This document shows positions 2,402 to 49,100 of a stretch of 64,000 nt of DNA, in pieces. The position numbers were made by a program, and so were the translations under genes. Below the pieces are notes generated by a model that was not told the DNA's origin, ran no database searches, and was given only the letters and a program-made list of their open reading frames with translations. Source of the DNA: Candidatus Woesearchaeota archaeon (GTDB lineage Archaea > Nanobdellota > Nanobdellia > Woesearchaeales > GW2011-AR4); contig JACPDF010000021.1 of assembly GCA_016184145.1 (NCBI GenBank), positions 8,422 through 72,421 on the forward strand, given 5' to 3'. Positions within the stretch are counted from its first letter, which is position 1, and every line of letters begins with the position of its first letter.

Positions 2402-4522
2402 ATGATAAAGAAAGCGCAAGTTTCAATTTTCATCATCCTTGGAATAGTGATTTTAGCAGCAGCTGCAGTAGTTTTTTACATAAACACAACAGCGGAAGAA
2501 GAGGAAATCGAGCCCGGAGTTTTCATTTCCACAAAAGAAATACCAACGCAGCTTGACCCTGTAAGCAATTTTGTTACACAATGTCTTGATGATGCGGCTG
2601 TTCGAGGCCTAAAGCTTATAGGCGAACATGGCGGCTATGTAGATATTAACAGCCCAGAGCTTACAAAACAGAATTTCAAAATGAGCAATGATCCTACAGA
2701 AAGTGATGCCGTGGCTTTTGCTCCCCAAAGTGATTTGAAGATTCCATACTGGTGGTACCTCGAAAGCAGCAATAACTGCCAGGAAACATGCAAGTTTGCA
2801 AGCAAAAGGCCTCCATTGAGAGATGAGGATAACTCAATAGAAAAGCAGCTTGATAGGTACATAGAAAAAAACCTGCCGGAATGCATAAACAATTTTGAAA
2901 GCTTAAAGGAACAGGGATTTGAGATTACTCAATCAAGCGCAATAAAAGCTAATACTAAAGTTGCGGAAAATGACGTGGTTGTAGTCTTGGACTATAGTTT
3001 GGAGGCAAAGAAATCAGATACAGCTTCAACTATAGACCAGTTCTTTGTAAGGGTTCCTGTAGACCTGCAGAAAATCTACAGTCTGTCTACAGACATTGCA
3101 AACATGCAGCAGAAATATCGTTTCCTCGAGAGGCAGACAATGAACCTAATCTCATCTTTTTCATCAGTTGATAAGGACAAACTGCCTCCAATTACAGACA
3201 TGAGGTTTGAATTTGGAAGCACAACAAGCTGGAGGAAGTCTGATGTAAAAAACAGCGTTACACAGGTATTGGCAAGCTACATCCCATTTTTCCAGGTTGA
3301 TGGCGCAAAGAACTTCAACCGCGGCTTCTACTCTTCAGGGCTAAAGCAGAGATTATATGACAGCATGATTATTCCCGTTGCAGACCAAGAATACAATAAC
3401 CTTGATGTCACATTTAATTATCTTGATTTCTGGCCTGCATATTTTAACATTAACTGCAATGGAGATATTTGCCAGCCAGAGTCAGCTTCCTCGAACTTAT
3501 TGGCCTTTATTGGGCTGCAAAGGTATGATTTTGCATATGACATTTCATTTCCTGCTTTAGTTGAGGTTTTTGATGAGAACGCATTAAATGGCCGGGGCTA
3601 TAAGTTCAATTTCTTTCTGGAAGCGAACGTAAGGAACAACCAAGAGTTAGAATCGGAGTTTGTGCCTTTACAGGCAGCTAATGTGCCAACAGCATCTTTC
3701 CTTTGCAATATAGAAAACAGGAACAGTGCTGATGTGACTATCAAAGCGATTGATGCTGTTGAAGCAAAGCCATTGGAGGATGTAAGCGTTACCTTGAGTG
3801 TTGCAGGAGAAAGCTGCTACATTGGGAGCACAAATGAGGATGGCACCCTGGTTGCAAAATTTCCAACCGGGACAGCCGGCGCAGTTGTAGGTTTATTAAA
3901 GCCTGATTATATTTCAAAATCGCAATTGTTTGACGCAAGCCCTGACAGGAAGCTTTCTGTCGAAGCAAAGCTTGATCCTGTCAAAGACAAAAAGATTGCT
4001 GTCAAGAAAAAGCTGCTCGAGAAAACAAACAGAGGCTGGGAGTTTACAAATAAGATTTCTGACTTAAAGCCGGAGGAGGAAGCTTTTGTAACTTTAACAA
4101 GGCTAAGTCCGGCAACAGAGGAAGACTTTGATGCGGTTGCAAGCATAAAAGGGACAAATGAAGAGCAGATCAGGCTGGCCCCAGGCAGATATGAAGTCAA
4201 TATAAACACTTTCCTGAGGGAAGACATAAGGATACCGGAAAAGAAAGTGAAGAAAAAAACTGGTTTGTTCTCGGAAGAGGAATTCACTATTCCAGGAATT
4301 GATTTTAACAGCCAGAACCCTTATCCTTCTGGCGGCTTAAGGATGAATGTTACCATAACAGAAGATGACCTGAAGAAAGGCACCATAACATTTTTTGCAG
4401 TAAGCCCTGCCCTGGAAAATGTTCCCGAGCAGCAAAGGTCAATTGACGATCTGAACCAGGCAGCTAAGATTGAAGAATACTCAAGGGTATTCGCACCATT
4501 GCTAAAGCCGGTATTCCAATAA
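2402..4522 (+). CDS. large protein with class-III (prepilin-like) signal motif, family member 1
   Basis: N-terminus MIKKAQ|VSIFIILGIVILAAAAVVFY fits [KR][GA]Q[VA]S plus a hydrophobic stretch. It shares the motifs xPYWWY and NLxxCIxxFxxF with 11741..13621 and 42317..43111. Confidence 0.6.
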   Translation: MIKKAQVSIFIILGIVILAAAAVVFYINTTAEEEEIEPGVFISTKEIPTQLDPVSNFVTQCLDDAAVRGLKLIGEHGGYVDINSPELTKQNFKMSNDPTESDAVAFAPQSDLKIPYWWYLESSNNCQETCKFASKRPPLRDEDNSIEKQLDRYIEKNLPECINNFESLKEQGFEITQSSAIKANTKVAENDVVVVLDYSLEAKKSDTASTIDQFFVRVPVDLQKIYSLSTDIANMQQKYRFLERQTMNLISSFSSVDKDKLPPITDMRFEFGSTTSWRKSDVKNSVTQVLASYIPFFQVDGAKNFNRGFYSSGLKQRLYDSMIIPVADQEYNNLDVTFNYLDFWPAYFNINCNGDICQPESASSNLLAFIGLQRYDFAYDISFPALVEVFDENALNGRGYKFNFFLEANVRNNQELESEFVPLQAANVPTASFLCNIENRNSADVTIKAIDAVEAKPLEDVSVTLSVAGESCYIGSTNEDGTLVAKFPTGTAGAVVGLLKPDYISKSQLFDASPDRKLSVEAKLDPVKDKKIAVKKKLLEKTNRGWEFTNKISDLKPEEEAFVTLTRLSPATEEDFDAVASIKGTNEEQIRLAPGRYEVNINTFLREDIRIPEKKVKKKTGLFSEEEFTIPGIDFNSQNPYPSGGLRMNVTITEDDLKKGTITFFAVSPALENVPEQQRSIDDLNQAAKIEEYSRVFAPLLKPVFQ

Positions 4523-4555
4523 AATGATTTTCAATAAAAAAAACAATGAAAAATT

Positions 4556-11740: not shown

Positions 11741-13621
11741 ATGTCAAAAAAAAGAGGTCAGGCATCTATATTCATGGTAATGGCAGTAATCATATTGCTC
11801 CTAGGGGCTCTTTTCTTCTATACCCAAAGGGCTTCTCTGGAAAAAGCAGAGCTGATAAGCCCAGAAATAGCGCCTGTGAAAAATTTCATAGACGCGTGCA
11901 TAAGCGATGTCGCAAGGCAGGGCATAACAATACTTGGGTTTAATGGGGGCTATATAAGCTTCCCGGATGAGATAAAAAACAATCCCAGGAGTTATCTGCA
12001 GCTTGGGCCTATAAGCAGCATAAAAAACCCTTACTGGTGGTATGACGGCATTGAAAGCGTTCCGTCAGAAAGCTTCATTGCAAGGCAGATAGAAGATTAC
12101 ATTACCTCAAATCTCGACACATGCATAAGCGACTTTAGCGCCTTTAGCCAGTTTGATGTAAGGCAAAGAGGATCTCTTGGCGTAAAAGTAACCCTTAATG
12201 AAAATGATGTTGCTGTAGATGTGAATTATCCTTTGGAGCTTACAAATAAGCTGAATAGAACCACAATAATGCTTGAAAAGTTCAAGGAAACGCTGCCCAT
12301 CAGGCTTAAGAAAGCCTATGAGATGGCAAAGGACATCTACGAGTCTGAAAAAAAGAATTTTTTCCTTGAATTTAAGACAATGGACCTTATAGCAATGGAC
12401 AAAAATATACCGACAACAGGGATAGAGACAACCTGCGGGGAAAAAGTATGGCGCGTTGACCAGGTGCAGCAAAAGCTGAAGAGGCTTCTCAATGTAAACT
12501 TGCCCTATATCAGCATAGTCAGCTCCGAATTTGATGAGAAGGTCTATGTGCCCAATCCATTCGGAGAAAATACCTATAAGGACTCCTACTATGGCAAGCA
12601 TTACAGCTGGCAAATAACAGACAAAAATTATGCTAATTTAAAAGTTTCATTTGCCTATGAGGAAAACTGGCCAATGCAGTTTTACGCAAGGCCAAGCAAC
12701 AATGGCATAATGAAGTCAAACGCCAAGAAAAGCCAGAGTTTTTTGGATTTTTTCTGCCTGCACATATGGCATTTTACATATGATGTTGTGTACCCTGTAA
12801 GGATCACCATAACTGACAATGCCCCCAAATCCGAGCCGTACCAGTTTAACTTTGCATTTGAGGTAAGCGTGGACCACAACCAGCCGAGAAGGGAAAACTT
12901 CGCATCAACATTATTCGAGCAGGCCGTTCTTGGTAATCAGGAAGAGTATTGCAATGATGTTGTGAATGATATTACCATTTATACAATGGAAAACACGACA
13001 GACCAGAAAGACATAGCCCATGTCAACCTCACATTCACATGCGGGATGTTTACATGCAACATGGGAGAGACAGACTGGCTTAGCTATGGTGCTGCTGCCG
13101 GCCTGACAAAGGCCTTCCCCTACTGCGTAAACGGCATCTTGAGGGGAAGCAAGGAAGGGTTTGAAGATAGCCAAAGATTCATGCGGACAGAGGCCCCAGG
13201 CACATATACGCTTTACCTTAAGCCAGTAAAACAATTTCAGGATTATGAGATTGTGAAACATGACTTTGACAATCCTTCTATTGAAAGCAAATTGAAGGAA
13301 AATGAGAAAGCGTCTATAACAATAAAATCCACGCAAAGTGATTTTGAAACTTTTGGAGTCTATCCTGTTGAAAAGGATTTCCAGATAAAGCTGCTCAATG
13401 ACGACCAGGAATATGAAGTCGCAATTTACCTTTCAGACGAAGACAGCATCATTGGCGGCTACAAGGGGACATGGAAAATTGCCGCATCAACAGTGTCAAA
13501 TTCAAAAAAAATAATATTTCATGTCCTGGAAAAGCAGGGGAATGATGACGAGACAGCTCTCTTTGTTTCAGGGCTTGATTCATACTCGCAAAAAGTTCCG
13601 CAGCCAGAGTTGATAGGATGA
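11741..13621 (+). CDS. large protein with class-III (prepilin-like) signal motif, family member 2
   Basis: MSKKRGQ|ASIFMVMAVIILLLGALFFY, with NPYWWY and NLDTCISDFSAF motifs. It is a paralog of 2402..4522. Its stop overlaps the downstream start (ATGA at 13618). Confidence 0.65.
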   Translation: MSKKRGQASIFMVMAVIILLLGALFFYTQRASLEKAELISPEIAPVKNFIDACISDVARQGITILGFNGGYISFPDEIKNNPRSYLQLGPISSIKNPYWWYDGIESVPSESFIARQIEDYITSNLDTCISDFSAFSQFDVRQRGSLGVKVTLNENDVAVDVNYPLELTNKLNRTTIMLEKFKETLPIRLKKAYEMAKDIYESEKKNFFLEFKTMDLIAMDKNIPTTGIETTCGEKVWRVDQVQQKLKRLLNVNLPYISIVSSEFDEKVYVPNPFGENTYKDSYYGKHYSWQITDKNYANLKVSFAYEENWPMQFYARPSNNGIMKSNAKKSQSFLDFFCLHIWHFTYDVVYPVRITITDNAPKSEPYQFNFAFEVSVDHNQPRRENFASTLFEQAVLGNQEEYCNDVVNDITIYTMENTTDQKDIAHVNLTFTCGMFTCNMGETDWLSYGAAAGLTKAFPYCVNGILRGSKEGFEDSQRFMRTEAPGTYTLYLKPVKQFQDYEIVKHDFDNPSIESKLKENEKASITIKSTQSDFETFGVYPVEKDFQIKLLNDDQEYEVAIYLSDEDSIIGGYKGTWKIAASTVSNSKKIIFHVLEKQGNDDETALFVSGLDSYSQKVPQPELIG

Positions 13622-34467: not shown

Positions 34468-34468
34468 T

Positions 34469-35113
34469 GTGTCAATTATAACTGACGCTTTTGAGGACTT
34501 GTTTCCTGAAAAAAACATCGAGGACTTCAATTTTAAGATAAATTATAATGGCAAGTTCAAGCCGTATAATGCCAATGTAAAATACACAAGGAATTCTTTT
34601 GCCTTTAATTTGAGCAAAAAATGGAAAAATGTAAGCAGGGAAATACAAATTGGCCTGTTACAGGAATTATTGTTAAAAATTTTCAAAACAAAAAAAAATA
34701 CTTTTAACATTGACTTATACAATAATTTCATGAAGAAAATATATATAGCTGCCCCGAAGACAAAAATAGACTCTTTTCTTGAGGAATCCTTTGACAGGGT
34801 AAATGAAAAATATTTCATTGGCATAGTCGAGAAGCCAAACCTCATATGGCACAGCTCTATAAGGCGCTTAGGAAGCTATGAGTACGGCTCTGACACGATA
34901 TCCATAAGCCGTGTTCTGGAAAATGACCTGGATGCATTGGATTATGTAATGCATCATGAGATGCTGCACAAAAAGCTCAAGTTTGACAATAAAAACGGAA
35001 GCTGCAGGCACCATACAAAAGCATTTAGGGAGCTGGAAAGGAAGTTTGAAAACAGCAATGAGATGGAAGAGAGGCTGAAAATCATTGCGGGGCATGGCAT
35101 GAGAAAGAGATAG
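34469..35113 (+). CDS. SprT-like / DUF45-type putative zinc metallopeptidase
   Basis: HExxH in VMHHEMLHKK, followed by a Cys/His cluster (GSCRHH). GTG start 1 nt after the aRF1 stop. Confidence 0.45.
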   Translation: MSIITDAFEDLFPEKNIEDFNFKINYNGKFKPYNANVKYTRNSFAFNLSKKWKNVSREIQIGLLQELLLKIFKTKKNTFNIDLYNNFMKKIYIAAPKTKIDSFLEESFDRVNEKYFIGIVEKPNLIWHSSIRRLGSYEYGSDTISISRVLENDLDALDYVMHHEMLHKKLKFDNKNGSCRHHTKAFRELERKFENSNEMEERLKIIAGHGMRKR

Positions 35114-35123
35114 AGAAAAAAAG

Positions 35124-36206
35124 ATGAAAATAAAAATATATATTTCACTAATCTTAGTTTTCATATTAAATTTTTTTATAGTGAATGCTATTGATTCTGT
35201 TACAGATGCACTGATAGAAGGTCAAACAAAAACATATACGATTGACGGCAAGACTTATGAAGTTACACCGAATTTTATTGACTCGGACGAAGCACAGTAT
35301 ATTGTTAATGGTAGAGTAACTAAAAAATTGAAAGCTGGTGATACTTATAATATATCAGAAGACATAGTAATTGGTGTAATAAACATTTTGTACCAAGACT
35401 ATGCTGGTGGCATTCACAGCACAACATTTGCTCTTACCCAAATAGAGCGATGTGGCAATAGTATATGCGGTGAAGGAGAAACATGCTCATCATGCCAACA
35501 AGATTGCGGCTGTGTTTCAGGATATGCGTGCCAATCAGAACAATGTATACAAGTAGTATTCTGCGGAGATAATAAATGCGGCCCTGAAGAAACTTGTGAA
35601 AAAGATAATTGCTGCTATGGAAGAACTGTTGATTTGAATTCTGATAGATACTATTGCGGTTCTTGCGGCAATGTTTGTATTACTAATCAAGACTGTATTT
35701 CTGGCATCTGTAAATTTCCTGAATATTGTGGAGATGACGCTTGCAATTCAAACGAGAACTGTGGAACTTGTGCTGAAGATTGTGCTTGTGCAAAAAACAC
35801 AAGATGTGAGTTAAATAAATGTGTAACTTACTGTGGTAACGGAATTTGCGAATCAAATGAGAAAGGTATTTGCAAAGCAGATTGCAAATGGTGCGGTGAT
35901 AGCAGTTGCAATGGCAATGAAGATTATAAAAAGTGTCCTCAAGATTGTGAAAGACCAATTATTTGCAGCGATAAAATATGTGATAATAATGAAAACTGTT
36001 GCATAGATTGTGGTTGTGATATTGGTTACGAGTGCATAAGTAATTCTTGTGTTTTAGCTTATGAATGCATATCAAATTCTGATTGTGGTGGTAATGAGGT
36101 CTGCATCAATAATAAATGTGTTTTAGTTGCTCAAAATACAATAAAAGAAGGACAAAATGTTTTGCAAGTTGTTATTAAATGGTTTTTTGGTTTATTTAGG
36201 AGGTAG
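35124..36206 (+). CDS. secreted Cys-rich protein with about 8 tandem CGxxxC…E.C..C..DC modules
   Basis: Signal peptide, then repeated modules such as CGNSICGEGETCSSCQQDCGC and CGDDACNSNENCGTCAEDCAC. Confidence 0.6.
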   Translation: MKIKIYISLILVFILNFFIVNAIDSVTDALIEGQTKTYTIDGKTYEVTPNFIDSDEAQYIVNGRVTKKLKAGDTYNISEDIVIGVINILYQDYAGGIHSTTFALTQIERCGNSICGEGETCSSCQQDCGCVSGYACQSEQCIQVVFCGDNKCGPEETCEKDNCCYGRTVDLNSDRYYCGSCGNVCITNQDCISGICKFPEYCGDDACNSNENCGTCAEDCACAKNTRCELNKCVTYCGNGICESNEKGICKADCKWCGDSSCNGNEDYKKCPQDCERPIICSDKICDNNENCCIDCGCDIGYECISNSCVLAYECISNSDCGGNEVCINNKCVLVAQNTIKEGQNVLQVVIKWFFGLFRR

Positions 36207-36208
36207 AT

Positions 36209-36457
36209 ATGGGTTTAAAAGAGTGGTGGAAAAGACTAAAGTATTGGAAAAGAGGTTTATATACAACTTTGGTCATTTATTTATTATTAAATATTCTTTA
36301 TTTAGGTTACACTACATATACTTCTAAAAAAATAATTTGTCTAACATTTGGTGGGGGCTTCAAATGTAACATTTTTGAATTTTTATTCACGTCTCTTGCT
36401 GGATTTCCTTGGTATTTCATCTTTATAGGTTTACCTATCATAATAATTTTTGGATGA
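36209..36457 (+). CDS. small membrane protein
   Basis: 82 aa with two hydrophobic helices, immediately downstream of the Cys-rich protein. Confidence 0.35.
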   Translation: MGLKEWWKRLKYWKRGLYTTLVIYLLLNILYLGYTTYTSKKIICLTFGGGFKCNIFEFLFTSLAGFPWYFIFIGLPIIIIFG

Positions 36458-36513
36458 TTGGTTTAATAAAATCAAAAAATGATAAGAAAATTAACTAGAT
36501 TTTCCGGGGTATT

Positions 36514-36568
36514 TGAAAAGAGTGAATTGTGAGCGAGTGAAACAAGTTTACTCGCATCTCCTCCTTTT
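36514..36568 (+). ncRNA. conserved intergenic hairpin element (copy 1 of 2)
   Basis: AGTGAATTGTGAGCGAGTGAAACAAGTTTACTCGCATCTCC. The inner stem is GCGAGTGAAAC/GTTTACTCGC with one bulged C, flanked by GAAAAGAG…CTCCTTTTC. Copy 2 is at 39645..39696. Confidence 0.4.
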
Positions 36569-36621
36569 CAAAACATTTAAATATAACTCCGTTTTTTTCT
36601 AACATACTATTTGGTGATTGA

Positions 36622-36831
36622 ATGAGCTCAAAGATTCTTCCTTTGGCTGCTATGGAAAAGATACTCAAGCAGTGCGGCGCTGACCGCGTTTCGGATAAGG
36701 CCAAAGTCGCTTTAAAGACTGTTGTCGAGGAAATTGCAGATAGGATAGCAGTCAAGGCAATACAGCTTGCTGTCCATGCGGGAAGGAAGACCGTAAAGGC
36801 AAGGGATATCAAGCTCGCTGCCAAAGGGTAG
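36622..36831 (+). CDS. archaeal histone (HMfB-like)
   Basis: 69-aa histone fold: LPLAAMEKILKQCGADRVSDKAKVALKTVVEEIADRIAVKAIQLAVHAGRKTVKARDIKLAAKG. Confidence 0.9.
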   Translation: MSSKILPLAAMEKILKQCGADRVSDKAKVALKTVVEEIADRIAVKAIQLAVHAGRKTVKARDIKLAAKG

Positions 36832-36944
36832 TCATAAAATTTATAAGTTATATGTCAAAAACACGCCGAAAATTCCGATTGCACAATCGGGATTTTCCAG
36901 CGTCTCAAATTATTGTCTTAATTTTCTGCAAAAAAGGTGATTTT

Positions 36945-37337
36945 ATGGCAACAAAGATGCAGTCTGTTGGAAGCTTGCAAAAAGGCAGCTATATTGTGCT
37001 TGAAGGCGCTGCCTGTAGGGTTGTTGACATGCAGGTCTCAAGGCCCGGCAAGCACGGCCACGCGAAAGTAAGGCTGACAGCAGTCGGCATTGTGGATGAG
37101 AAAAAAAGGGTTGTTGTAATGCCAGGCCACGATAATGTGGAAGTGCCGATAATAGAGAAGAAGACAGCCCAGGTCCTGTCTATACAGGGAGATACCGCAA
37201 ATGTCATGGATTCCGAGACATACGAGACATTTGACCTAAAAATACCTGAAGAATTAAAGGGGCAGGTTGCGGAAGGAATAAGTGTCCTGTACTGGGTCGT
37301 GCTTAGCGACAAAGTTATGAAGCAGATAAAAGGTTAA
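36945..37337 (+). CDS. eif5a: translation initiation factor 5A (aIF5A)
   Basis: Hypusine loop SRPGKHGHAKVR. The start is taken at the internal ATG (MATKMQ…); the longer ORF from 36852 adds an implausible leader. Confidence 0.9.
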   Translation: MATKMQSVGSLQKGSYIVLEGAACRVVDMQVSRPGKHGHAKVRLTAVGIVDEKKRVVVMPGHDNVEVPIIEKKTAQVLSIQGDTANVMDSETYETFDLKIPEELKGQVAEGISVLYWVVLSDKVMKQIKG

Positions 37338-37432
37338 AACAATAGTTAAAGCATTCAAGGATAAGATTAAAAAATAAGAAGCTGCAAAAACCACCGTAGG
37401 TGGTGCCAAAAATACACAGAGGATTTTTGAGT

Positions 37433-37594
37433 ATGGTAAAATTTGCTGAGGCGGAAGCAAGGAAGTTTAGGAATATTTTTGTCTGCAAGAACTGCAGCAC
37501 TAAAATAAGGGCCAATAACATGAAAATCATACAGGGCAGGATAAAGTGCAGAAGATGCAACAGCAACAAATTTCGCTCAGTAAGGAAGAAATAA
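37433..37594 (+). CDS. rpl40e: 50S ribosomal protein L40e
   Basis: MVKFAEAEARKFRNIFVCKNCSTKIRANN…CRRCNSNKFRSVRKK, with the zinc-ribbon C4 pattern typical of L40e. Confidence 0.8.
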   Translation: MVKFAEAEARKFRNIFVCKNCSTKIRANNMKIIQGRIKCRRCNSNKFRSVRKK

Positions 37595-37595
37595 A

Positions 37596-38777
37596 ATGCC
37601 ATTGGAATTCCAGACCACAGCAGCTATTGTTTTTCTGGTTCTTCTCTCATTATTTGTCTATGCAAAAAGGAAAAACCTGCATACTCATGGGCTTTTTCCA
37701 TTGATTTATTTCTCAATGTACAGGACGCAGATTGGCTTGAAGTTTATGGATAGGTTTGCAGGGAAATTTAACAAAACCATGAAGTTCCTTGGCTATGCAG
37801 GGATTTTAGTTGGATTCTTGGGCATGGCTCTGTTGTCATTTTCCTTGCTGCAGAATTTATACAATCTTATTGCAACGCCGGAAGCGCAGCCTGGCGTGGG
37901 CTTGGTGCTTCCTTTCAAGGTAAAAGGCGCTTTCTTCGTGCCATTCTTTTACTGGATTATTGCCATATTCATCATTGCTTTAGTCCACGAGTATGCACAT
38001 GGAGTTATAGCCCGCGCCCATAACCTTAAGGTAAAATCTTCAGGCTTTGCTTTTTTAGGGATTTTAATACCAGTTATACCTGCTGCATTTGTGGAGCCGG
38101 ACGAAAAAACTTTGAGAAAAAGGCCTCATAAGCAGCAGCTTTCTGTGTTCGCTGCAGGCCCATTTTCCAATATAATCCTGGCATTTATTGTGCTGGGCTT
38201 TTCATTCCTCATTTTATCTCCAATTGCAGATAATATGATGGAATATTCTGGAGTTGAGATAACGGGGTTTATCGAAGGCAATTATCCTGCTGAATCATCC
38301 GGAATCGCAAAAGGCGAGGTTGTAAAAAGCATCAACGGGAAAAAAATAGAGACTCTTGATGATTTCTCAGGAATATTAAAAGAGAAAAAGCCGGGTAATA
38401 CAATAAGGCTTGAAACTGACAAAAACACTTATAACCTAAAGCTCGGAAAAAATCCAGAGGACGAGAGCCTGGCTTACTTGGGCGTTTATGTCCAGCAGGA
38501 ATCCAGAGTGAAAGAGTCCTTCAAGGAGAAGTATGGCAGTTTTATCCCTGCAGCAATAATATGGATTGCTGGCTTGTTCAGCTGGCTGATAATACTCAAT
38601 TTGGGAATTGGGCTTTTTAACCTAGTCCCTATCGGCCCATTGGACGGCGGCCGTATGCTGCAGCTTGTCCTCCACAGGTTTTTTGAGAGGAAGAAAGCCG
38701 ACAAGGTGTGGTATTATGTGAGCATGGTCTTTCTGCTGATTGTTGTAGCCAATATAGGAGCTGCCTTCATCAAGTAA
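37596..38777 (+). CDS. site-2 protease (M50 family) with PDZ domain
   Basis: HExxH in TM (LVHEYAHGVIA), the LDG motif (PIGPLDGGRM), and a central PDZ-like segment. Confidence 0.85.
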   Translation: MPLEFQTTAAIVFLVLLSLFVYAKRKNLHTHGLFPLIYFSMYRTQIGLKFMDRFAGKFNKTMKFLGYAGILVGFLGMALLSFSLLQNLYNLIATPEAQPGVGLVLPFKVKGAFFVPFFYWIIAIFIIALVHEYAHGVIARAHNLKVKSSGFAFLGILIPVIPAAFVEPDEKTLRKRPHKQQLSVFAAGPFSNIILAFIVLGFSFLILSPIADNMMEYSGVEITGFIEGNYPAESSGIAKGEVVKSINGKKIETLDDFSGILKEKKPGNTIRLETDKNTYNLKLGKNPEDESLAYLGVYVQQESRVKESFKEKYGSFIPAAIIWIAGLFSWLIILNLGIGLFNLVPIGPLDGGRMLQLVLHRFFERKKADKVWYYVSMVFLLIVVANIGAAFIK

Positions 38778-38808
38778 GTTTTTAAATTATAATCAAATAC
38801 TGGTTCTT

Positions 38809-39570
38809 ATGATAGAAATAATTTTAATGGAGCCCAGGAAGCAGGAAAATGTTGGAGCAGTGGCAAGGGCCATGAAGAACTTTGACTTTGAATATCTTGT
38901 TTTGATTGCTCCTAAATGCAAAATAGGCAAGAAAGCAAGAAAAGTGGCAAAGCATGCCAATGATATTCTTGATAAAGCAAAAATAAAAAAATTTGATTAT
39001 TTGAAAAATTACGATTATTTGATTGGAACAACCGCAATTTTAGGCACCGATTATAACATACCAAGAAATACGATAAGCATTGAGCAATTAAGCAATAAGT
39101 TATCAGCAATAATAGGGAAAAAGAAAACCGATAATAAAAAAAATTTCAACAAAAAGAAGGGCTATAATAATAAAAATACACCCTCTAATAATTTAAAAAT
39201 TGGCATTTTGATTGGAAGGGAAACCATTGGATTGAAGAATGAAGAGATTAATTTATGCGATATCCTTGTTACGATACCAACTTCAAAAAAATACCCTACG
39301 CTTAACATAAGCCACTCTGCTGCCATAATGCTTTATGAACTGTTCAAAAGAATAAATGATGAAAAATCCAACTCACACATCAGCTTCGCAACAAAGAAAG
39401 ACAAGGAGATTATTATGAAATACATAAACCATGTTTTGAATAAGATGGAATTCCCGACAAAAGAAAAGAAAGAAACCCAGAGAAAAGTCTGGAAACGGGT
39501 CATTGGAAAAGCCATGCTGACAAAAAGGGAGGCTTTTTCTGTTATGGGGTTTCTGAGAAAATTAAAATAG
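38809..39570 (+). CDS. SPOUT-class (SpoU/TrmH family) RNA methyltransferase
   Basis: N-terminal EPRKQENVGAVARAMKNF and C-terminal IGRETIGL…NISHSAAIMLYEL, with a K/N-rich insertion. Confidence 0.6.
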   Translation: MIEIILMEPRKQENVGAVARAMKNFDFEYLVLIAPKCKIGKKARKVAKHANDILDKAKIKKFDYLKNYDYLIGTTAILGTDYNIPRNTISIEQLSNKLSAIIGKKKTDNKKNFNKKKGYNNKNTPSNNLKIGILIGRETIGLKNEEINLCDILVTIPTSKKYPTLNISHSAAIMLYELFKRINDEKSNSHISFATKKDKEIIMKYINHVLNKMEFPTKEKKETQRKVWKRVIGKAMLTKREAFSVMGFLRKLK

Positions 39571-40441: not shown

Positions 40442-40738
40442 ATGAATGCAAGCCATAAAGCAGATAATGAAAATTATATGAATAGTATGGTTAATGCCAT
40501 ATATAATGCTAACTGGAAAAAAATTGCCAAGTACGCTGCTTCTGCAGGGGCTGGAGCTGCTGCGTTGGGATTTGCAGGCTATGAATTCGGGCGTGATATT
40601 GCTGATTTATTCGTAGAATCAAAAATGGGTATTGAAAGGGCTGTCGTAGGAGACCTAATTGCCAAAGTCAGCCCTTATGCAGGCGGAGTAATTGGCATGT
40701 TAGCTGCATATGTTTCAGATAAAATACAAAAAAAATAG
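40442..40738 (+). CDS. small Gly/Ala-rich hypothetical protein
   Basis: 98-aa ORF with AGAGAAALGFAGYEFG and GGVIGMLAAY segments. Confidence 0.3.
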   Translation: MNASHKADNENYMNSMVNAIYNANWKKIAKYAASAGAGAAALGFAGYEFGRDIADLFVESKMGIERAVVGDLIAKVSPYAGGVIGMLAAYVSDKIQKK

Positions 40739-40763: not shown

Positions 40764-42314
40764 CTAACATGCATTACGGCTTTTCAGTGTTCCGCACAAA
40801 AGCGCAGCAGGCATATCATTAACATTGTTTCTTGAAGTGACATAGACCGGAAGCAATACCTGCCTCATAAACAAGTCATTAGAAAATTGTAAAGACTGTT
40901 TAGTGGCTCTGTCTTTGATATTAGGATAAAAATCTACAGAGCTTCTGCCATTCTGAATTGTATAGACCATCTCCGACCCTGCCTTGAATCCGCCCATAGA
41001 AGACATGAAACTATCAAACCTCTCCCTTTGGGATTGCACCTGAGGATTATTAATTATTATTTTTCCAGTTTTTTCTGTGTACGGCACTCCGGATCTTATT
41101 ATTTCTTTTTGAAATTCAGATTTGATCTCTTCAGGAGTTAGTGCTTTGCTCACCTTCGGCATTATCCTCATCGTAATCGGGTCAGCATACTTAGCAACAA
41201 AATTCTGGAAATTCTTATCTTCATTTGGATTTTCAGGCAATTTACCCACTAAAATCTCGTAATCTTTCTTGAGCTGATCAGCATCAAACTCCAGCTGTGC
41301 ATCATAAGCATGGACAAATAAAACACTCCTTTTATAAAGCCCCACTCTTTCAGACTTAGGGTTGCTATACGCTACAAAACTCCCATCCATGGAAACTCCT
41401 GCTTTATGGCCGCTTTGCAGGTTCTTCAGAATCATATTTTTATCGCCTCTCCCCATATCCGAATCAACATTTATCTTGCCATTGTCAAAAGTAAATTTAA
41501 GTCCCCCGTTAATAACCCGGATTCCTTTTCCATTTACATCTACTGAGTCATAAGGGCTGTTTTTTGTAAATTGGGCAGAAAAATCCCTTCCTGCTAAAAG
41601 CGCTCTTCTGTTCGCTTGGTCAAATAAAACATAGCTGTTTTTGCCGGAATTAAATCCAAGATCAACCTTGGTATTTTGCGTGTTTATCGTAGTTTGTAAA
41701 AATTCTGCTGAAGAATGTTCCTGCAGGGTATAGCGGCCGTCTTTCACGCTCAGCATGCCGCTCTTCAGCGTAACCTCTCCGGCATTGTTTTTTATTGAAA
41801 CGTCTGAGCCGCTAATATACCTTTCACCTGCGGTGCCGGACACATCAAACTTTTTTGATGATGTTATCTGGTTGCTGTCTAACTTTACTGGTGCATTGGT
41901 GTTTGGCTTGATAGTAATGCTCCCATCTTGATTAACAGTAATTGCACCATCAAAGCCCTTAAAGCTGTTCAGGTTTAAATCAGTAGTTTGGGTTTTTACA
42001 AGGCCATTATTGAATGTTACTTGACCGCTGACCGCTACACTGCTGCTGGAATAAAAAGACAGTATTTTTGATTGGACTCCCATAGACGCTTTGCTAAAAA
42101 CTGATTCAACCTGGCCTATTGTTCCTTCCTTAAAAAGCCTCTCGACACCAAGCTGGTTGTTTTCCAGCGCATTTGCAATAGCTATGGGATTGTTGAAGTT
42201 CAATGCCCCATTAGCCTCAAATGAGGTGTCTTGGGCCATTGCAGACATAAAGTTCAGCAGTAAAACAGCTAAGATAACAATTGCAATATTTGTTGTTTTT
42301 TTTATTTTTTCCAT
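40764..42314 (-). CDS. secreted protein (516 aa), module-3 cargo
   Basis: Signal peptide MEKIKKTTNIAIVILAVLLLNFMSAMA and a T/S/N-rich beta-type composition. It lies immediately downstream of the pilin-like gene 42317..43111. Confidence 0.6.
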   Translation of the reverse strand: MEKIKKTTNIAIVILAVLLLNFMSAMAQDTSFEANGALNFNNPIAIANALENNQLGVERLFKEGTIGQVESVFSKASMGVQSKILSFYSSSSVAVSGQVTFNNGLVKTQTTDLNLNSFKGFDGAITVNQDGSITIKPNTNAPVKLDSNQITSSKKFDVSGTAGERYISGSDVSIKNNAGEVTLKSGMLSVKDGRYTLQEHSSAEFLQTTINTQNTKVDLGFNSGKNSYVLFDQANRRALLAGRDFSAQFTKNSPYDSVDVNGKGIRVINGGLKFTFDNGKINVDSDMGRGDKNMILKNLQSGHKAGVSMDGSFVAYSNPKSERVGLYKRSVLFVHAYDAQLEFDADQLKKDYEILVGKLPENPNEDKNFQNFVAKYADPITMRIMPKVSKALTPEEIKSEFQKEIIRSGVPYTEKTGKIIINNPQVQSQRERFDSFMSSMGGFKAGSEMVYTIQNGRSSVDFYPNIKDRATKQSLQFSNDLFMRQVLLPVYVTSRNNVNDMPAALLCGTLKSRNAC

Positions 42315-42316
42315 TT

Positions 42317-43111
42317 TTAGGCTGCATTCACGTTATGATCAATAGCAAAAACAAAGACATAGGGCTTGTTGCTAAGTTTTGTTTGATTGTCTTCTACAGC
42401 TATAATGGTGACATTTGCTGTTTTAGGAATCAGCTCAAAATAAAGGTTGTTTGCGTCACCCAGCTCTATAAGGCAGCTGATGCATATACTCCCCAAATGA
42501 GTCAGCTGGTCATCGGTTATATTCTCAGCTAAGCTATAAACCAGGCTTAGCCTGGAAGGGATTACAACCAAAAAATCCTCCATGGTTGATGATTTTTGCC
42601 CCTTTTCAACTGCTATTGGGAAATTTAGGCTGAATGCAACAGTGTCTTCATTTATTGAAGTTGCAGTTGAGAATCCGCTTCTTGTAATTTTATAGCCAAG
42701 ATTATTGAAGTCTTTAAAATCATCAATGCAACTATCTAAGTTTTCGTCTATATAATTTGAAATCTCATTTTCTATTGTTTGCAGGCTGGGCATTACATTT
42801 TCGCCATTGAATAGGTAAACAGCATGGAAGAAATTGTAAAAAATTCCTTTGGAATCTATTTTATGGCTTGGTTCGTTGAAAAATCCCCCTTGAAGCCCTG
42901 TAAAGTATAATGCGCTCTCCCCTGTACTCTTCAGGCATAAATCCACATAACTTTTTATTGGAGTGGACAAGTCTGAAGAAGCGGATTGTATTTTTACTTC
43001 CTGTTTTATCTCTTCCACTTGGTGATTTAAATAGAAAAGGAACCCGGCAATTATGAGAATAACAAAGCTAAAAAGTATGAATATGCTAACCTGTCCTCTT
43101 CTTTTATCCAT
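42317..43111 (-). CDS. protein with class-III (prepilin-like) signal motif, family member 3
   Basis: MDKRRGQ|VSIFILFSFVILIIAGFLFY. It shares NLDSCIDDFKDF with the other two members. Confidence 0.6.
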   Translation of the reverse strand: MDKRRGQVSIFILFSFVILIIAGFLFYLNHQVEEIKQEVKIQSASSDLSTPIKSYVDLCLKSTGESALYFTGLQGGFFNEPSHKIDSKGIFYNFFHAVYLFNGENVMPSLQTIENEISNYIDENLDSCIDDFKDFNNLGYKITRSGFSTATSINEDTVAFSLNFPIAVEKGQKSSTMEDFLVVIPSRLSLVYSLAENITDDQLTHLGSICISCLIELGDANNLYFELIPKTANVTIIAVEDNQTKLSNKPYVFVFAIDHNVNAA

Positions 43112-43153
43112 TTTTCAATTTTTATAAATTAAATTTGGTTAATTGAGATAGAA

Positions 43154-43471
43154 TTATTTGCTTTTCTTGTCAAAATATCCCCTGGCCTTCTCATTGCCCA
43201 TCGGCTTTGCTTTCTCTCCTAAGCCATAGTATGTCTTCTCAGCTTCACCGCCCCAGGAATATTCCCCTTTTTCCCTCTGCACTTTGCTTACCTTGAATTC
43301 TCCTAAAGCAAGCCCTTTCTTCAGATGGTAATATATGCTACGCATGGTTACTTTAGGAAATATTGCAGTATAGGCCTTGTAAATCTCATACCCATATCCT
43401 TCTTCCATGAAATAAAGAATTTCTATAATGTTCTGCCTTATTTCTGACCTTACTGGACGACCTTTTGGCAT
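43154..43471 (-). CDS. PadR-like winged-helix transcriptional regulator
   Basis: GYEIYKAY…SIYYHLKKGLALGEFKVSKVQREKGEYSWGGEAEKTYYGL matches the PadR HTH plus wing pattern. It sits directly upstream of module 3. Confidence 0.5.
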   Translation of the reverse strand: MPKGRPVRSEIRQNIIEILYFMEEGYGYEIYKAYTAIFPKVTMRSIYYHLKKGLALGEFKVSKVQREKGEYSWGGEAEKTYYGLGEKAKPMGNEKARGYFDKKSK

Positions 43472-43567
43472 AACAGCTTTATTTAATAATTAGTATTTAT
43501 ATCTTTCTATATTGAAAATAAGTATGTAACACAAAATTTAAATAAGATATAATAAACGAACAAAGCA

Positions 43568-46140: not shown

Positions 46141-49100
46141 TTATTTTCTCTTAAGCCTTTTTTCTTCCTTAGACACAGCTACTATTGTCTTAAGTATGGC
46201 ATCAGGAGTCAAAGACATTGAGTCTATTCCACATTCAACTAAAAATCTCGCAAATTCTTGGGAAGAACTCGGAGCATCGCCGCATATCCCCACTTTCTTC
46301 TTGTTTTTCTTCGCTACCCTGATTATATCCGCAACCAATATTTTCACAGCCGGATTATTCTCGTCATAAATATGGCTCACTAAAGCTGAATCCCTATCTA
46401 ATCCAAGAGTTAATTGCGTTAAATCATTTGTTCCTATGCTAAACCCGTCAAAAATCTTTGAAAATTCGTCGCCTAAAATCACATTGCTTGGGATTTCGCA
46501 CATTACATAAAGCTCCAAGCCGTTTTTATGCTGCCTTAATCCGTGCTTGTCCATCTCCTCAATCACTTTTTTAGCTTCCTCTACTGTCCTGCAGAAAGGA
46601 ACCATAACTTTTATGTTTGTTAATCCCATCTGGTCCCTTGCTTTTTTGAGCGCTTTGCATTCCAAAGCAAAAGCTTCCTTATATTTTTCAGAATAATATC
46701 TTGAAGCGCCTCTCCATCCTAGCATCGGGTTTTCCTCTTTTGGCTCAAATTCCTCTCCGCCTATAAGGTTTGCATACTCATTGCTTTTGAAATCCGAGAG
46801 CCTTGCAATGACATCATTGGGATAGAAGGCTGCCGCAAGTGTTGCAACTCCTTCAGCAAGCTTGTCGATGAAAAAGAATTCCAGCTTTTTGCCGTGATAG
46901 CCGCGAGTGGCTTTCAGGATTGCATTTCTTGTATTTTCGTTCTTTATTTTATCGAAATGCAGCAAGGCAAGAGGATGGACTTTTATGTAGCTGCTTATTA
47001 TGAATTCCTGCCTCGCCAAGCCAATGCCGTCATTTGGTATAAAGCTGAGCTCAAAAGCCTGCTCAGGATTTCCCAGGTTCATCATTATCTTTGTCTTTGG
47101 CTTTTTTAGCTTGCTAAGGTCTGTTTTTTTAACCTGGAATTTTAACAGGCCGTCATAAACAAAGCCGTCGCTTCCTTCAGCGCAGCTTACGGTTATTTTC
47201 TGCCCGTTCTTTATTTTCTCTGTCCCGTTTCCTGTGCCTACAACGCATGGTATTCCCAGCTCCCTTGCTACAATTGCTGCATGACAGTTATTGACCAAAA
47301 TAGGAGTGTATCTGGTGGTAAAAACAATATAATTATGGTTGTCTTCGACAGTAATATTGTAGACATCCTGCTCTCCAAGATCTCTGCTATAATCCACCCT
47401 CTGCATCCTTAAGTCGGATTCCAGTATCCTAGCGAGATTTTCTCTCAGGTTTTCAGGGCAAAGTGGCAGTATGTTATCTCTTATTTTATCGCCGTCAATC
47501 AGCAAATTTTTGTCCACATAAGGCCTTATTCTCCCCTTATAGTTTACCTTGTCAATTATATCACCGATTATTTGCTTGGCTCCAAAAAACCTTGTGCCTT
47601 GGGTTTTTCTGCTGTAAGCGCCCTTAACCCTCTTCGTATGCTGCAGCAGTTCATTCACCCTTTCCACAATCTGTATATTTGCTATGGTCCTGTTCCTGCT
47701 TATTTGAGGCACTATTCCTAATCTCAGGCAACAGACAACAATAGCCTGCAACAGCGGTTTATTGGAACAAAAGATGTTTATCCTGCTGGATTTGTGGCTG
47801 TAAGTGCCGTCGCCATCTATTACTCCTGCAAGAAAGCTAAAGATAAGTTCTTCGTCTGCTGACAGCAAAGTCTTTACCAGATTATGCTTATGCTCGAGCA
47901 GCTCAGTAGCAACTTGTTTGCTGTAAACCCTGTAAGCATTTGCATTTCCTGTTACCTTTTTCCCTCTTATAAAGCCGCTTGACTCTTTTTTCTTAGAAAC
48001 AGAAAAAGTCTTATGAAAAACCTCTTTCATGTAAGTTTGCATTGTAGAGATAAAATTCTCTTTCTCCGCAATTGGCTTCTGTACGAAAGTAACTACGCCA
48101 TGTCTTCTTGTTAGGTATATATTTCCGTCTGTGCTTATTGCACCCAGCAGATAAGCCAGTTTCCTATCTTTTTCGTTGCTCTCATTCAAAGAAGGTATTT
48201 TTTGGACTATGCTCATCATTTCATTGTCTTTTATAACCCCCCTTATCTCCTTAGCCACTAGACTCCTGTTCTCAAAAGTCAGAATCTTGTGGTCTGGCGT
48301 CAAGCCTAATGTATTATATTTCGCGCGTCCTGTCTGGGACACCCCTATTTCAATTGCATTATTTTTTCTTTTCATGGATGCTATAATCCTTTTCCACTCA
48401 ACTTTCAATGTTTTTTTATTCAGGGACGGAACATAAAGACCTTCATAATCCTCAAATACATCCTCAAATTTCATAAAACCCTTATTTGTAAGAAGAATTG
48501 TGTCTGCGGTAAAGCACGTCTTGCCCCCCCTGTTTGTAACAATAGCGGCAGCGGACTTCATTATAGGCTCCCAGTCGGGGTCTGTCATCTCGGTAACTAA
48601 AACATCTCCCTTATTGAAATTCTCAATGTCCCTCACGCTGTTAATAATGTGGGCTTTTCCCTGCCCTATCTTGTCGCCTATGCTCAATCCGGCAACTAAA
48701 AGCCTGCCTTTTTCCTTGAGTTCGTATTTCTCAAGTATTTTCACATTCTTCTGGCTCTGGACTGTCTCGGGCCTTGCCTGCACAATATACAGCTTGTTGC
48801 TTCTGCCGTCTTTTGCCCACTCCATGTCCATTGGCTTGAATTTGCCGGCTTTCCTTGAATAATGCTCTTCAATGATTACTGCCCATTTTGCCAATGTCAG
48901 GACTCCATCATCATTTATGCAGAATTTGTTCCTGAACGCTTCTGAAACATCAACATTCTTTGTAGCGCTTTTTTCCCCTATATGGCTGTAAACCATCTTA
49001 ATTTGTTTTGTGCCTAACTTTTTGCTTATTATCGGCTTAAAGCCTTTTTTTAGTGTTGGCTTGAAAACATAGAACTGGTCCGGGTTTACAGATCCCTGCA

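What the first reader, a model, noticed from the sequence alone, without database searches (positions are those of the whole stretch)
40764..43471. Third, unlinked copy of the module: PadR-like regulator, class-III-signal protein, secreted 516-aa protein
On the minus strand a PadR-like wHTH gene (43471->43154) directly precedes the third pilin-like paralog (43111->42317). That gene abuts a 516-aa secreted protein (42314->40764) with only a 2-nt gap. The logic of regulator, class-III-signal protein and secreted cargo matches the two tandem modules, although the regulator belongs to a different fold family each time (RHH, AbrB, PadR).
Basis: inference. Interest (0 to 1): 0.6.

Follow-up and report, generated by a model that had tools for sequence, protein, structure and literature searches.

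The report
Prepilin-like anchor plus secreted partner cassette
In this Woesearchaeota (DPANN archaeon) genome, a protein with a pilin-type signal and a fast-evolving secreted partner form a widespread, unannotated two-gene surface cassette, here sitting behind a lineage-wide PadR-fold DNA-binding gene that is probably not its dedicated regulator.

Summary
The three ORFs are real and lie exactly where stated: 105 aa, a 42-nt gap, 264 aa, a 2-nt gap, 516 aa, all on the minus strand.

The 264-aa protein is a true paralog of the 626-aa and 706-aa proteins over about 200 N-terminal residues. It belongs to a very large family with no Pfam or NCBIfam model (1,386 clusters at E<=1e-30). The family has a conserved prepilin-type N-terminus, K-[KR]-[GAS]-Q-x-[ST]-x-F.

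Where sequence downstream was available, nearly every family member is followed at once by a gene with a Sec-type signal peptide. That partner varies widely in size and sequence. This pair is the real module.

The 105-aa protein matches no PadR sequence model, but its predicted fold matches PadR structures best. It is 51-90% identical across 46 species and carries a conserved palindrome at its own promoter. Most of those species have no adjacent cassette. In close relatives the cassette lies downstream, upstream or inverted relative to it.

The gene is probably co-transcribed with the cassette here. I do not think it is a cassette-specific regulator. The function of the cassette, surface display or adhesion, is inferred and not shown.

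The parts
43504..43518 (-). Operator-like near-palindrome TTTTCAATATAGAAA (TTTC-n-ATAT-n-GAAA), 47 nt upstream of the wHTH ATG
   Evidence: It is the only exact match in the window. The same motif sits at a fixed -46 to -62 (mostly -46 to -51) from the ATG in 25 orthologous loci, while the surrounding sequence is not conserved.
43494..43502 (-). TATA-like box ATATAAATA, centred about 27 nt upstream of the wHTH ATG, which would imply a leaderless or near-leaderless transcript
   Evidence: Read from the sequence. It is conserved as (A/C)TATAAATA next to the palindrome in orthologous loci. Its promoter function is inferred.
43154..43471 (-). 105-aa PadR-fold winged-helix protein with an N-terminal RGRP-type basic arm; a conserved gene across Woesearchaeota
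   Evidence: The AF2 model has pLDDT 88.9 with topology a1-b-a2-a3-long beta hairpin-a4. The best Foldseek PDB hits are PadR-family proteins: 9qbd_B E 1.5e-4, then 6abq, LmrR, 5dym, 5x11, 4esb, 3hhh. More than 1,000 clusters were found, the listed ones at 73-90% identity, and 46 GTDB species carry it. There is no Pfam or PDB sequence hit.
43112..43153 (-). 42-nt spacer between the wHTH gene and the 264-aa gene, with no oligo-T terminator; its TATA-like TTTATAAA lies only 10-17 nt from the ATG
   Evidence: Read from the sequence. The equivalent spacers in co-directional relatives are 1-25 nt.
42317..43111 (-). 264-aa class-III-signal (prepilin-like) protein, a short-form member of a very large unannotated DPANN family
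   Evidence: BLASTP to the 626- and 706-aa paralogs gives E 6e-26 and 1e-22. A profile search found 8,326 clusters at E<=1e-3 and 1,386 at E<=1e-30. The AF2 model has pLDDT 89.8. No PDB structure or sequence match was found. No Pfam, NCBIfam or PHROG family matched.
43025..43111 (-). Class III signal region: leader MDKRRG, predicted cleavage G6|Q7, then QVSIFILFSFVILIIAGFLF
   Evidence: The motif K-[KR]-[GAS]-Q-[IV]-[TS]-[ILV]-F, followed by about 21 uncharged residues, with a leader mostly 4-7 aa long, occurs in 122 of 154 top family members. Cleavage itself was not tested.
40764..42314 (-). 516-aa exported partner with a Sec-type signal peptide (residues 1-27, AMA|QD); fast-evolving, with no known domain
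   Evidence: It has only three homologs, at 46-47% identity, each next to a 264-aa-type gene. Distant versions occur in L010 and L022. N-X-S/T sequons number 0, 1, 0 and 0 in the four homologs against 5-7 expected each. No Pfam, NCBIfam or PHROG hit was found.
40728..40735 (-). T8 run 29-36 nt after the 516-aa stop codon, a candidate archaeal oligo-T terminator for the unit
   Evidence: Read from the sequence. It overlaps the 3' end of the convergent 98-aa gene. Terminator function is inferred.
40442..40738 (+). 98-aa small glycine-rich membrane protein, convergent, which travels with the cassette in relatives
   Evidence: Homologs at 39-41% identity sit in the same position after the partner gene in L007 and L056, including the rearranged L008/L056 layout.
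2402..4522 (+). 706-aa long-form paralog (module 1), followed by a 1053-aa Sec-signal protein at 4615-7776
11741..13621 (+). 626-aa long-form paralog (module 2), followed by an overlapping 2227-aa Sec-signal protein at 13618-20301

Best explanation
The functional unit is a two-gene surface cassette, with a small convergent membrane-protein gene (98 aa) travelling alongside it.

The 264-aa protein enters the membrane through a prepilin-type (class III) signal. It is probably cut by a prepilin peptidase between G6 and Q7. That leaves a hydrophobic N-terminal helix carrying a cysteine-stabilised alpha/beta ectodomain.

The translationally coupled 516-aa protein is exported through Sec. It is then held or presented at the cell surface by the 264-aa protein, either at the membrane or as a minor or tip subunit of a type-IV-like fibre. 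The partner is the variable, presumably ligand- or host-binding, component.

The upstream 105-aa gene encodes a PadR-fold winged-helix protein conserved across Woesearchaeota. It probably binds the palindrome next to its own TATA box. In this genome the cassette sits directly behind it and is most likely transcribed from that promoter as a three-gene mRNA. The wHTH protein is not a cassette-specific regulator.

Shown: gene structure, paralogy, the conserved signal motif, the conserved gene pairing, the PadR fold, the conserved palindrome, and the variable arrangements.

Inferred: signal cleavage, physical interaction between the two proteins, surface display or adhesion, autoregulation, and co-transcription.
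For: Pairing:
- About 20 family genes had sequence available downstream. Nearly all are followed on the same strand, at a gap of -65 to +92 nt (L025's called ORF overlaps by 209 nt), by a gene that opens with a Sec-type signal peptide. The partners range from 453 to 2227 aa and are mostly unrelated in sequence.
- Exceptions are the 1084-aa and 1116-aa forms (L039, L051), which carry the family domain at the N-terminus of one long protein.
- A natural 16-bp deletion fuses the pair in frame in L058.

Signal: the conserved K-[KR]-[GAS]-Q-x-[ST]-x-F motif plus about 21 uncharged residues occurs in 122 of 154 members.

Export of the partner:
- It has an n-h-c signal with an AxA cleavage site.
- The family nearly lacks N-X-S/T sequons, with 1 observed against about 24 expected over four homologs. 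Cytoplasmic control proteins match expectation.

Evolutionary rates: against L007 the wHTH is 75% identical, the anchor 56% and the partner 46%. Against L010 the values are 85%, 25% and 25%. Fast change in the exposed components fits surface proteins.

wHTH:
- The fold matches PadR structures best.
- A palindrome sits at a fixed -46 to -62 from the ATG (mostly -46 to -51) in 25 orthologous loci.
- Co-directional spacers are 1-42 nt.
- Three different arrangements occur among close relatives, and 34 of 43 evaluable loci have no cassette.
Against: - No prepilin peptidase, pilus ATPase or platform gene lies in the 64-kb window. The rest of the genome could not be scanned.
- The ectodomain model has no Foldseek match to any pilin, and residues 31-50 are of lower confidence. 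A canonical pilin fold is therefore not shown.
- No interaction between the two proteins was tested, and the partner's structure could not be predicted.
- Family genes are about 20-fold concentrated at the 3' flank of the wHTH gene. That could reflect a real regulatory link that my operator search missed.
- There are no transcript data.
Confidence: 0.55

Rival explanations
1. The 105-aa PadR-like protein is the dedicated transcriptional regulator of the downstream pair. Each of the three modules would then be a regulator-anchor-cargo unit using a different regulator fold.
For: - The co-directional arrangement is tight here and in L007, L022, L023, L025 and L052, with spacers of 1-42 nt.
- Family genes are enriched at the wHTH 3' flank: 9 of 43 loci against 1 hit elsewhere.
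- In module 1 the 56-aa RHH-like ORF is conserved at 81% identity, in the same position, before a 715-aa homolog in L063.
- The fold is PadR-like.
Against: - The wHTH gene persists at 51-90% identity in 34 of 43 evaluable species that have no adjacent cassette.
- The cassette is upstream of it in L008 and L056 and inverted in L010 and L011.
- The operator palindrome is absent upstream of independently placed family genes and of modules 1 and 2, with at least 4 mismatches in 15 positions.
- Several cassettes have no nearby small regulator.
Confidence: 0.2
2. The 264-aa protein is not pilin-like. Its N-terminus would be an uncleaved signal anchor, and the ectodomain would be a membrane-tethered assembly factor or thiol-disulfide foldase, acting through its CxxC motif, for the co-translated secreted partner.
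For: - C210-x-x-C213 is nearly invariant in the ~250-aa subfamily and sits at the start of a helix in the model.
- There is a weak match to the ResA thiol-disulfide oxidoreductase model at residues 205-259 (E 0.0017, far below the curated cutoff).
- No pilus machinery lies nearby, and the fold has no pilin match.
Against: - Invariant Q(+1) and F(+5) with a [KR][GAS] site 4-7 residues from the start are hard to explain for a plain signal anchor.
- In the pairwise alignments the 626- and 706-aa paralogs match the 264-aa protein only up to about residue 205, before the CxxC segment. Their own partners are the cysteine-rich ones.
- The 516-aa partner has only two cysteines, and they are not conserved.
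Confidence: 0.15
3. The adjacency has no functional meaning. The space between the convergent wHTH gene and the 182-aa membrane-protein gene would simply be a permissive insertion or recombination site where fast-evolving surface-gene cassettes accumulate.
For: - The conserved backbone is wHTH followed by the convergent 182-199-aa gene and the M50 peptidase gene. Cassettes of different partner families, in both orientations, are found between them.
- Cassettes also occur at other places in the same conserved housekeeping region in L065.
Against: - Spacers of 1-25 nt in five co-directional relatives leave no room for an independent promoter. Expression there must depend on the wHTH promoter.
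- The association recurs in distant lineages with different flanking genes (L039, L051).
Confidence: 0.1

Closest known systems
Archaeal class III signal peptide proteins: type IV pilins, Epd minor pilins cleaved by EppA, and Pfam PF04021 (motif QxSxExxxL, recalled from memory)
   Same: A short basic leader, a [KR][GAS] site, Q at +1, S/T at +3 and about 20 hydrophobic residues.
   Different: - F replaces E at +5.
- No Pfam pilin or class III model is matched; only a sub-threshold TadE/G-like hit appears, in the 626-aa paralog.
- The ectodomain is 220 aa or more, with two conserved cysteine pairs and no structural match.
- No pilus machinery genes are nearby.
Minor pilin plus PilY1-type tip adhesin in bacterial type IV pili, and the PilY-like adhesins proposed for archaeal systems (PMC4858521; bioRxiv 10.64898/2026.04.22.720090)
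   Same: A pilin-type protein is encoded next to a large Sec-exported, variable surface protein that is thought to be presented by it.
   Different: The partners have no PilY1, DUF2341 or vWA domain. The pairs stand alone among housekeeping genes rather than inside a pilus operon. No interaction has been shown.
Non-pilin surface proteins with class III signals in Sulfolobus, i.e. the sugar-binding proteins of the 'bindosome' processed by PibD (from established knowledge)
   Same: A prepilin-type signal is used to anchor or assemble a globular extracellular protein rather than to build a fibre.
   Different: There is no substrate-binding-protein domain, no Bas-like assembly genes are seen, and the obligatory Sec-exported partner has no counterpart in that system.
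PadR-family regulators, short PadR-s2 type such as LmrR
   Same: The protein is about 105 aa with a winged helix plus one C-terminal helix. The best PDB fold matches are PadR proteins. A palindromic site lies at its own promoter.
   Different: It matches neither the Pfam PadR model nor any PDB sequence. It has an RGRP basic N-terminal arm and an extended wing with an invariant YSWG. It is conserved like a core gene across a whole lineage rather than sitting beside an efflux or detoxification gene.
[quoted passage not shown] S-layer-like proteins' (PMC6393860)
   Same: It is DPANN-wide, unannotated and secreted, and it is encoded next to large surface proteins with Ig-like domains. Here the 2227-aa partner carries fn3 and Ig-like domains.
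   Different: Identity with this family could not be tested because no NEQ255 sequence was available. That paper proposes no class III signal, pairing rule or mechanism.

Membership tests
Type IV pilin-like / class III signal peptide proteins | N-terminal class III signal: a short basic leader, a [KR][GAS] cleavage site and about 20 hydrophobic residues | tested here: met
   The sequence reads MDKRRG|QVSIF followed by a 19-residue hydrophobic run. The motif is present in 122 of 154 top family members, with a leader mostly 4-7 aa long.
Type IV pilin-like / class III signal peptide proteins | Cleavage by a prepilin peptidase (PibD, FlaK or EppA) | not testable with these tools
   This needs biochemistry. 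No A24-family peptidase gene is in the window, and the rest of the genome was not available.
Type IV pilin-like / class III signal peptide proteins | Pilin fold: a long N-terminal helix whose C-terminal half packs on an antiparallel beta-sheet | tested here: inconclusive
Type IV pilin-like / class III signal peptide proteins | Match to curated pilin or class III models (Pfam Pilin_N, Class_IIIsignal, TadE) | tested here: not met
   There is no hit for the 264-aa protein. The only related hit is a sub-threshold PF13400 Tad match (E 0.018) for the 626-aa paralog.
Type IV pilin-like / class III signal peptide proteins | Encoded with the pilus ATPase and platform genes | tested here: not met
   None is present in the 64-kb window or in the flanks of about 20 family genes examined.
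PadR family transcription regulators | Match to the Pfam PadR model or to PadR sequences in the PDB | tested here: not met
   None of 24 family members matches PadR at E<=1. The profile search of PDB sequences gives Rex as its best hit, at E 0.21.
PadR family transcription regulators | Winged-helix fold with a C-terminal dimerisation helix (PadR-s2 architecture) | tested here: met
   The AF2 model has pLDDT 88.9. Nine of the top 13 Foldseek PDB hits are PadR-family chains aligned over 96-111 columns, with a best E of 1.5e-4.
PadR family transcription regulators | Binds an inverted-repeat operator, commonly at its own promoter | tested here: inconclusive
   A conserved near-palindrome abuts the TATA box at a fixed distance from the ATG in 25 orthologous loci. 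Binding was not tested.
Sec (SPase I) secreted proteins: the 516-aa partner | An n-h-c signal peptide with an AxA cleavage site and no further membrane segment | tested here: met
   The N-terminus reads MEKIKKTT-NIAIVILAVLLLNFMS-AMA|QD, and homologs have equivalent signals. This is by inspection only; no SignalP-type predictor was available. Sequon depletion supports export.
Minor pilin / PilY1-type adhesin pair | The partner carries a PilY1, DUF2341 or vWA adhesin domain | tested here: not met
   There are no Pfam hits for the 516-aa protein. The other partners show only fn3 and Ig-like domains.
DPANN dark-matter cluster cls.004306 (NEQ255) | Sequence similarity to NEQ255 | not testable with these tools
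The lead comes from PMC6393860.

The most novel reading that the evidence does not exclude
DPANN archaea of the Woesearchaeota/Nanoarchaeota group carry a lineage-wide, undescribed surface-display system. It would consist of a prepilin-signal anchor protein with a new cysteine-stabilised fold, thousands of sequence clusters and several copies per genome. Each anchor would be hard-wired by translational coupling, and occasionally by fusion, to a hypervariable, non-glycosylated Sec-exported partner. These pairs would be the host- or substrate-recognition repertoire of these episymbionts, analogous to but independent of the minor-pilin/PilY1 tip complexes.
Probability: 0.3. Interest if true: 0.75.

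Novelty: new variant of a known kind. Interest (0 to 1): 0.55.

Why it matters
How DPANN archaea recognise and attach to hosts is largely unknown, and most of their surface proteins are unannotated. This analysis defines a very large family with a pilin-type signal and no Pfam or NCBIfam model. It gives a simple, testable genomic rule: each anchor gene is followed by a tightly coupled, fast-evolving secreted partner. That rule yields a concrete candidate set for attachment determinants.

The analysis also separates this pair from a neighbouring PadR-fold gene. That gene is interesting in itself, because it is highly conserved across the lineage and has a conserved palindrome at its promoter, which gives a ready EMSA target.

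Tried and rejected
- Pfam, NCBIfam and PHROG scans of all three proteins and both paralogs gave nothing meaningful.
- PDB sequence searches with single sequences and with profiles gave nothing.
- Foldseek of the 264-aa model against the PDB gave no hit at E<=1e-3.
- The 516-aa structure was not predicted. I used the last prediction job on the wHTH protein instead.
- A viral or mobile origin was rejected: the viral contig collection holds no relatives of the anchor or the wHTH protein and there are no PHROG hits.
- The metagenome locus scan returned only four loci, and the first attempt failed for lack of conserved columns.
- The search for the wHTH palindrome upstream of other family genes and of the other two modules found nothing above chance: 22 matches against 17 expected at <=3 mismatches.
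- The bacterial sigma-70 promoter and terminator scanner was not used, because it does not apply to archaea.
- No tRNA or Rfam RNA is present in the window.
- MarR and ArsR/SmtB comparisons by hhalign gave no alignment.
- Cluster look-ups gave no informative names, only 'hypothetical protein'.
Full report
**Source and observation**

The window comes from a Candidatus Woesearchaeota (DPANN) metagenome-assembled genome; NCBI names the two proteins HYU50_02060 and HYU50_02065.

- 105 aa at 43154-43471
- 264 aa at 42317-43111
- 516 aa at 40764-42314

The spacers are 42 nt and 2 nt. Identical copies of the three-gene block occur in several independent sequencing runs. Each protein has homologs elsewhere, so these are real genes.

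Residue numbers in alignments A1-A6 and in both models are one lower than true protein numbering. I accidentally trimmed the start codon rather than the stop codon of these minus-strand genes. True numbering is used below.

**The 264-aa protein**

It is a genuine paralog of the 626-aa (11741-13621) and 706-aa (2402-4522) proteins, with BLASTP E 6e-26 and 1e-22. The similarity covers only the first ~200 residues. A family HMM finds exactly these three copies in the window.

No Pfam, NCBIfam or PHROG model matches it. The word-index search found only four close relatives.

A profile search of 1.84 billion cluster representatives found far more:
- 8,326 clusters at E<=1e-3
- 6,148 clusters at E<=1e-10
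- 1,386 clusters at E<=1e-30

The best 150 hits align over nearly the whole profile. Most are ~250 aa, and there are further size classes at ~360-440 aa and ~700 aa. Members that carry any source name are called 'hypothetical protein'.

In 122 of 154 top members the N-terminus reads K-[KR]-[GAS]-Q-[IV]-[TS]-[ILV]-F, followed by about 21 uncharged residues. The leader before it is mostly 4-7 residues. Here the sequence is MDKRRG|QVSIF. This is the archaeal class III (prepilin) signal pattern. Q at +1 and S/T at +3 resemble the EppA-type substrates, as I recall them, but F replaces E at +5.

Cys59 and Cys128 are nearly invariant. In the short subfamily so are Cys210 and Cys213, which form a CxxC.

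AlphaFold2 gives a confident model with pLDDT 89.8. It has an N-terminal helix with a lower-confidence stretch over residues 31-50, followed by helix-plus-antiparallel-sheet units.

Foldseek against the PDB finds nothing at E<=1e-3, and a profile search of PDB sequences finds nothing. The signal is therefore pilin-type, but a pilin fold is not demonstrated. No pilus ATPase, platform or peptidase gene lies in the window.

**The 516-aa protein**

It starts with a classical n-h-c signal peptide ending AMA|QD. This was read by inspection. It has no other hydrophobic segment and no recognisable domain.

Only three homologs were found, at 46-47% identity. Each is encoded right after a 264-aa-type gene. 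More distant versions follow the family gene in L010 and L022. The protein is unrelated to the 1053-, 801- and 2227-aa proteins of the other two modules.

The family almost completely lacks N-X-S/T sequons. Counts are 0, 1, 0 and 0 against 5-7 expected per protein, while cytoplasmic proteins in the window match expectation. Such avoidance only makes sense for a protein exposed to the external glycosylation machinery, so it independently supports export.

**The real module is the pair**

About 20 family genes had sequence available downstream: the window, loci found through the wHTH gene, metagenome loci, and contigs of unrelated family members. In nearly all of them the next gene on the same strand starts between -65 and +92 nt (L025's called ORF overlaps by 209 nt), often overlapping by 4 nt. 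It opens with a Sec-type signal peptide.

The partner ranges from 453 to 2227 aa and is mostly unrelated in sequence between cassettes. Exceptions are the 1084-aa and 1116-aa forms in L039 and L051, where the family domain heads one long protein.

L058 is a natural variant of L022 with a 16-bp deletion that fuses anchor and partner in frame. Tight coupling, hypervariable partners and occasional fusion point to a physical partnership. I read the class-III-signal protein as the anchor or presenter of the Sec-exported protein.

A small convergent membrane-protein gene (98 aa, 40442-40738) travels with this particular cassette in relatives.

**The 105-aa protein**

No PadR model or PDB sequence matches it or 23 relatives. 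Its single-comparison E-value is 0.016 and its probability only 2.8%. MarR and SmtB give nothing.

The AlphaFold2 model (pLDDT 88.9) is a winged helix with a long beta-hairpin wing and one C-terminal helix. Nine of the top 13 Foldseek PDB hits are PadR-family chains: 9qbd_B at E 1.5e-4, then 6abq, LmrR variants, 5dym, 5x11 and 4esb. 3hhh and 3elk rank lower. 'PadR-like' is therefore supported at fold level.

The protein is strikingly conserved. More than 1,000 90%-identity clusters were found, the listed ones at 73-90% identity. It is present in 46 GTDB species representatives of Woesearchaeota/Nanoarchaeota at 51-85% identity. It evolves far more slowly than its neighbours:

| Relative | wHTH | Anchor | Partner |
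|---|---|---|---|
| L007 | 75% | 56% | 46% |
| L010 | 85% | 25% | 25% |

**Is it the module's regulator?**

Evidence for a link:
- In the window and in L007, L022, L023, L025 and L052 the family gene follows the wHTH gene co-directionally. The spacer is 42 nt in the window and 1-25 nt in the relatives.
- The window spacer has no oligo-T run, and its TATA-like element is too close to the ATG to serve it. A T8 run follows the 516-aa gene. Co-transcription is therefore likely here.
- Across 43 evaluable wHTH loci, 9 have a family gene in the 3' flank. Only 1 further hit occurs in the remaining sequence of ~450 kb.

Evidence against a dedicated role:
- 34 of 43 evaluable loci have no cassette. There the wHTH gene is followed by the convergent 182-199-aa membrane-protein gene and the M50 peptidase gene, which form the same backbone as in the window, or by housekeeping genes.
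- In L008 and L056 the same cassette lies upstream of the wHTH gene and has its own promoter region. In L010 and L011 it is inverted.
- A conserved near-palindrome, TTTC-n-ATAT-n-GAAA, abuts the TATA box at -46 to -62 from the wHTH ATG (mostly -46 to -51) in 25 orthologous loci, while the flanking sequence is not conserved. This operator-like site is absent upstream of independently placed family genes and upstream of modules 1 and 2.
- Other cassettes have no small regulator gene nearby.

I conclude that the wHTH protein is a lineage-wide, probably autoregulated DNA-binding protein. The cassette has repeatedly come to sit behind its gene, using its promoter in this genome. It is not a cassette-specific regulator.

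The 52-aa ORF before module 2 has only a sub-threshold AbrB/MazE-type hit.

**Comparison with known systems**

The closest analogies are:
- archaeal class III signal proteins
- the minor-pilin/PilY1 adhesin pairing
- Sulfolobus surface proteins that use prepilin signals without forming fibres

Membership in curated pilin families fails on sequence models and is inconclusive on fold.

Literature on archaeal type IV systems notes that DPANN pilins are too divergent to recognise (PMC6393860, PMC4858521). [quoted passage not shown] I could not test that.

Pili are implicated in attachment of ultra-small groundwater cells to hosts (PMC9938205).

**Verdict**

The anchor-partner cassette is a new variant of a known kind: a pilin-type surface protein paired with a variable secreted protein. 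It belongs to a large unannotated family. The mechanism (cleavage, interaction, adhesion) is inferred.

Noticed in passing
window 43494-43518 (-); also L007, L008, L010-L023, L025, L026, L031, L033, L041, L044, L056: A near-palindrome TTTC-n-ATAT-n-GAAA lies directly upstream of a TATA-like box, at a fixed -46 to -62 (mostly -46 to -51) from the ATG of the conserved 105-aa wHTH gene, in 25 orthologous loci. The surrounding sequence is not conserved. It is a candidate autoregulatory operator for a lineage-wide PadR-fold protein.
   Followed up: yes
window 40764-42314 (-) and homologs P0007-P0009; also 7784-10189 (+): The 516-aa secreted family almost entirely lacks N-X-S/T glycosylation sequons (0, 1, 0 and 0 observed against 5-7 expected each). 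The 801-aa protein has 1 against 7.5 expected. Cytoplasmic proteins in the window match expectation.
   Followed up: partly
L058:81-1976 compared with L022:2722-4873: A metagenome variant 99.6% identical to L022 carries a 16-bp deletion at the anchor/partner junction. The deletion fuses the two ORFs in frame into a 631-aa protein. It could be a real population variant or an assembly error.
   Followed up: partly
window 3702-3716 (+) and 4528-4542 (+): A one-mismatch copy of the wHTH palindrome (TTTGCAATATAGAAA, identical to the wHTH-promoter version in L041 and L044) lies inside the 706-aa ORF. A two-mismatch copy lies in the 92-nt spacer between the 706-aa and 1053-aa genes. Neither is above chance by the shuffle control.
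   Followed up: partly
window 46141-49797 (-): The PEP synthase gene carries an intein with a LAGLIDADG homing-endonuclease domain (1218 aa). The ortholog in L056 is intein-free at 800 aa. A second free-standing LAGLIDADG ORF lies at 26916-27776.
   Followed up: partly
window 2230-2400 (+) and L063:5838-6017: The 56-aa RHH-like ORF that ends 1 nt before the 706-aa gene is 81% identical to a 59-aa ORF in the same position before a 715-aa homolog in another metagenome. It is a real, conserved small gene despite having no Pfam hit.
   Followed up: partly
window 43154-43471 (-), residues 1-12: The wHTH protein starts with an invariant (K/R)GRP-x-x-S-x-IRQN segment that resembles an AT-hook-like basic arm. 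This segment has low confidence in the model. It may contact the minor groove of the AT-rich operator.
   Followed up: no
L039:6313-9567 (-) and L051:6324-9674 (-): In two distant Woesearchaeota the family domain heads 1084-aa and 1116-aa proteins (46% identical to each other). These lie convergent to, and directly abutting, the wHTH gene, and have no separate Sec-signal partner.
   Followed up: no
window 33361-39570 compared with L065: The housekeeping neighbourhood (eRF1, IF5A, M50 peptidase) is conserved in another lineage, L065. There an unrelated anchor-partner cassette (246 aa + 750 aa) is inserted at a different position in the same region.
   Followed up: no
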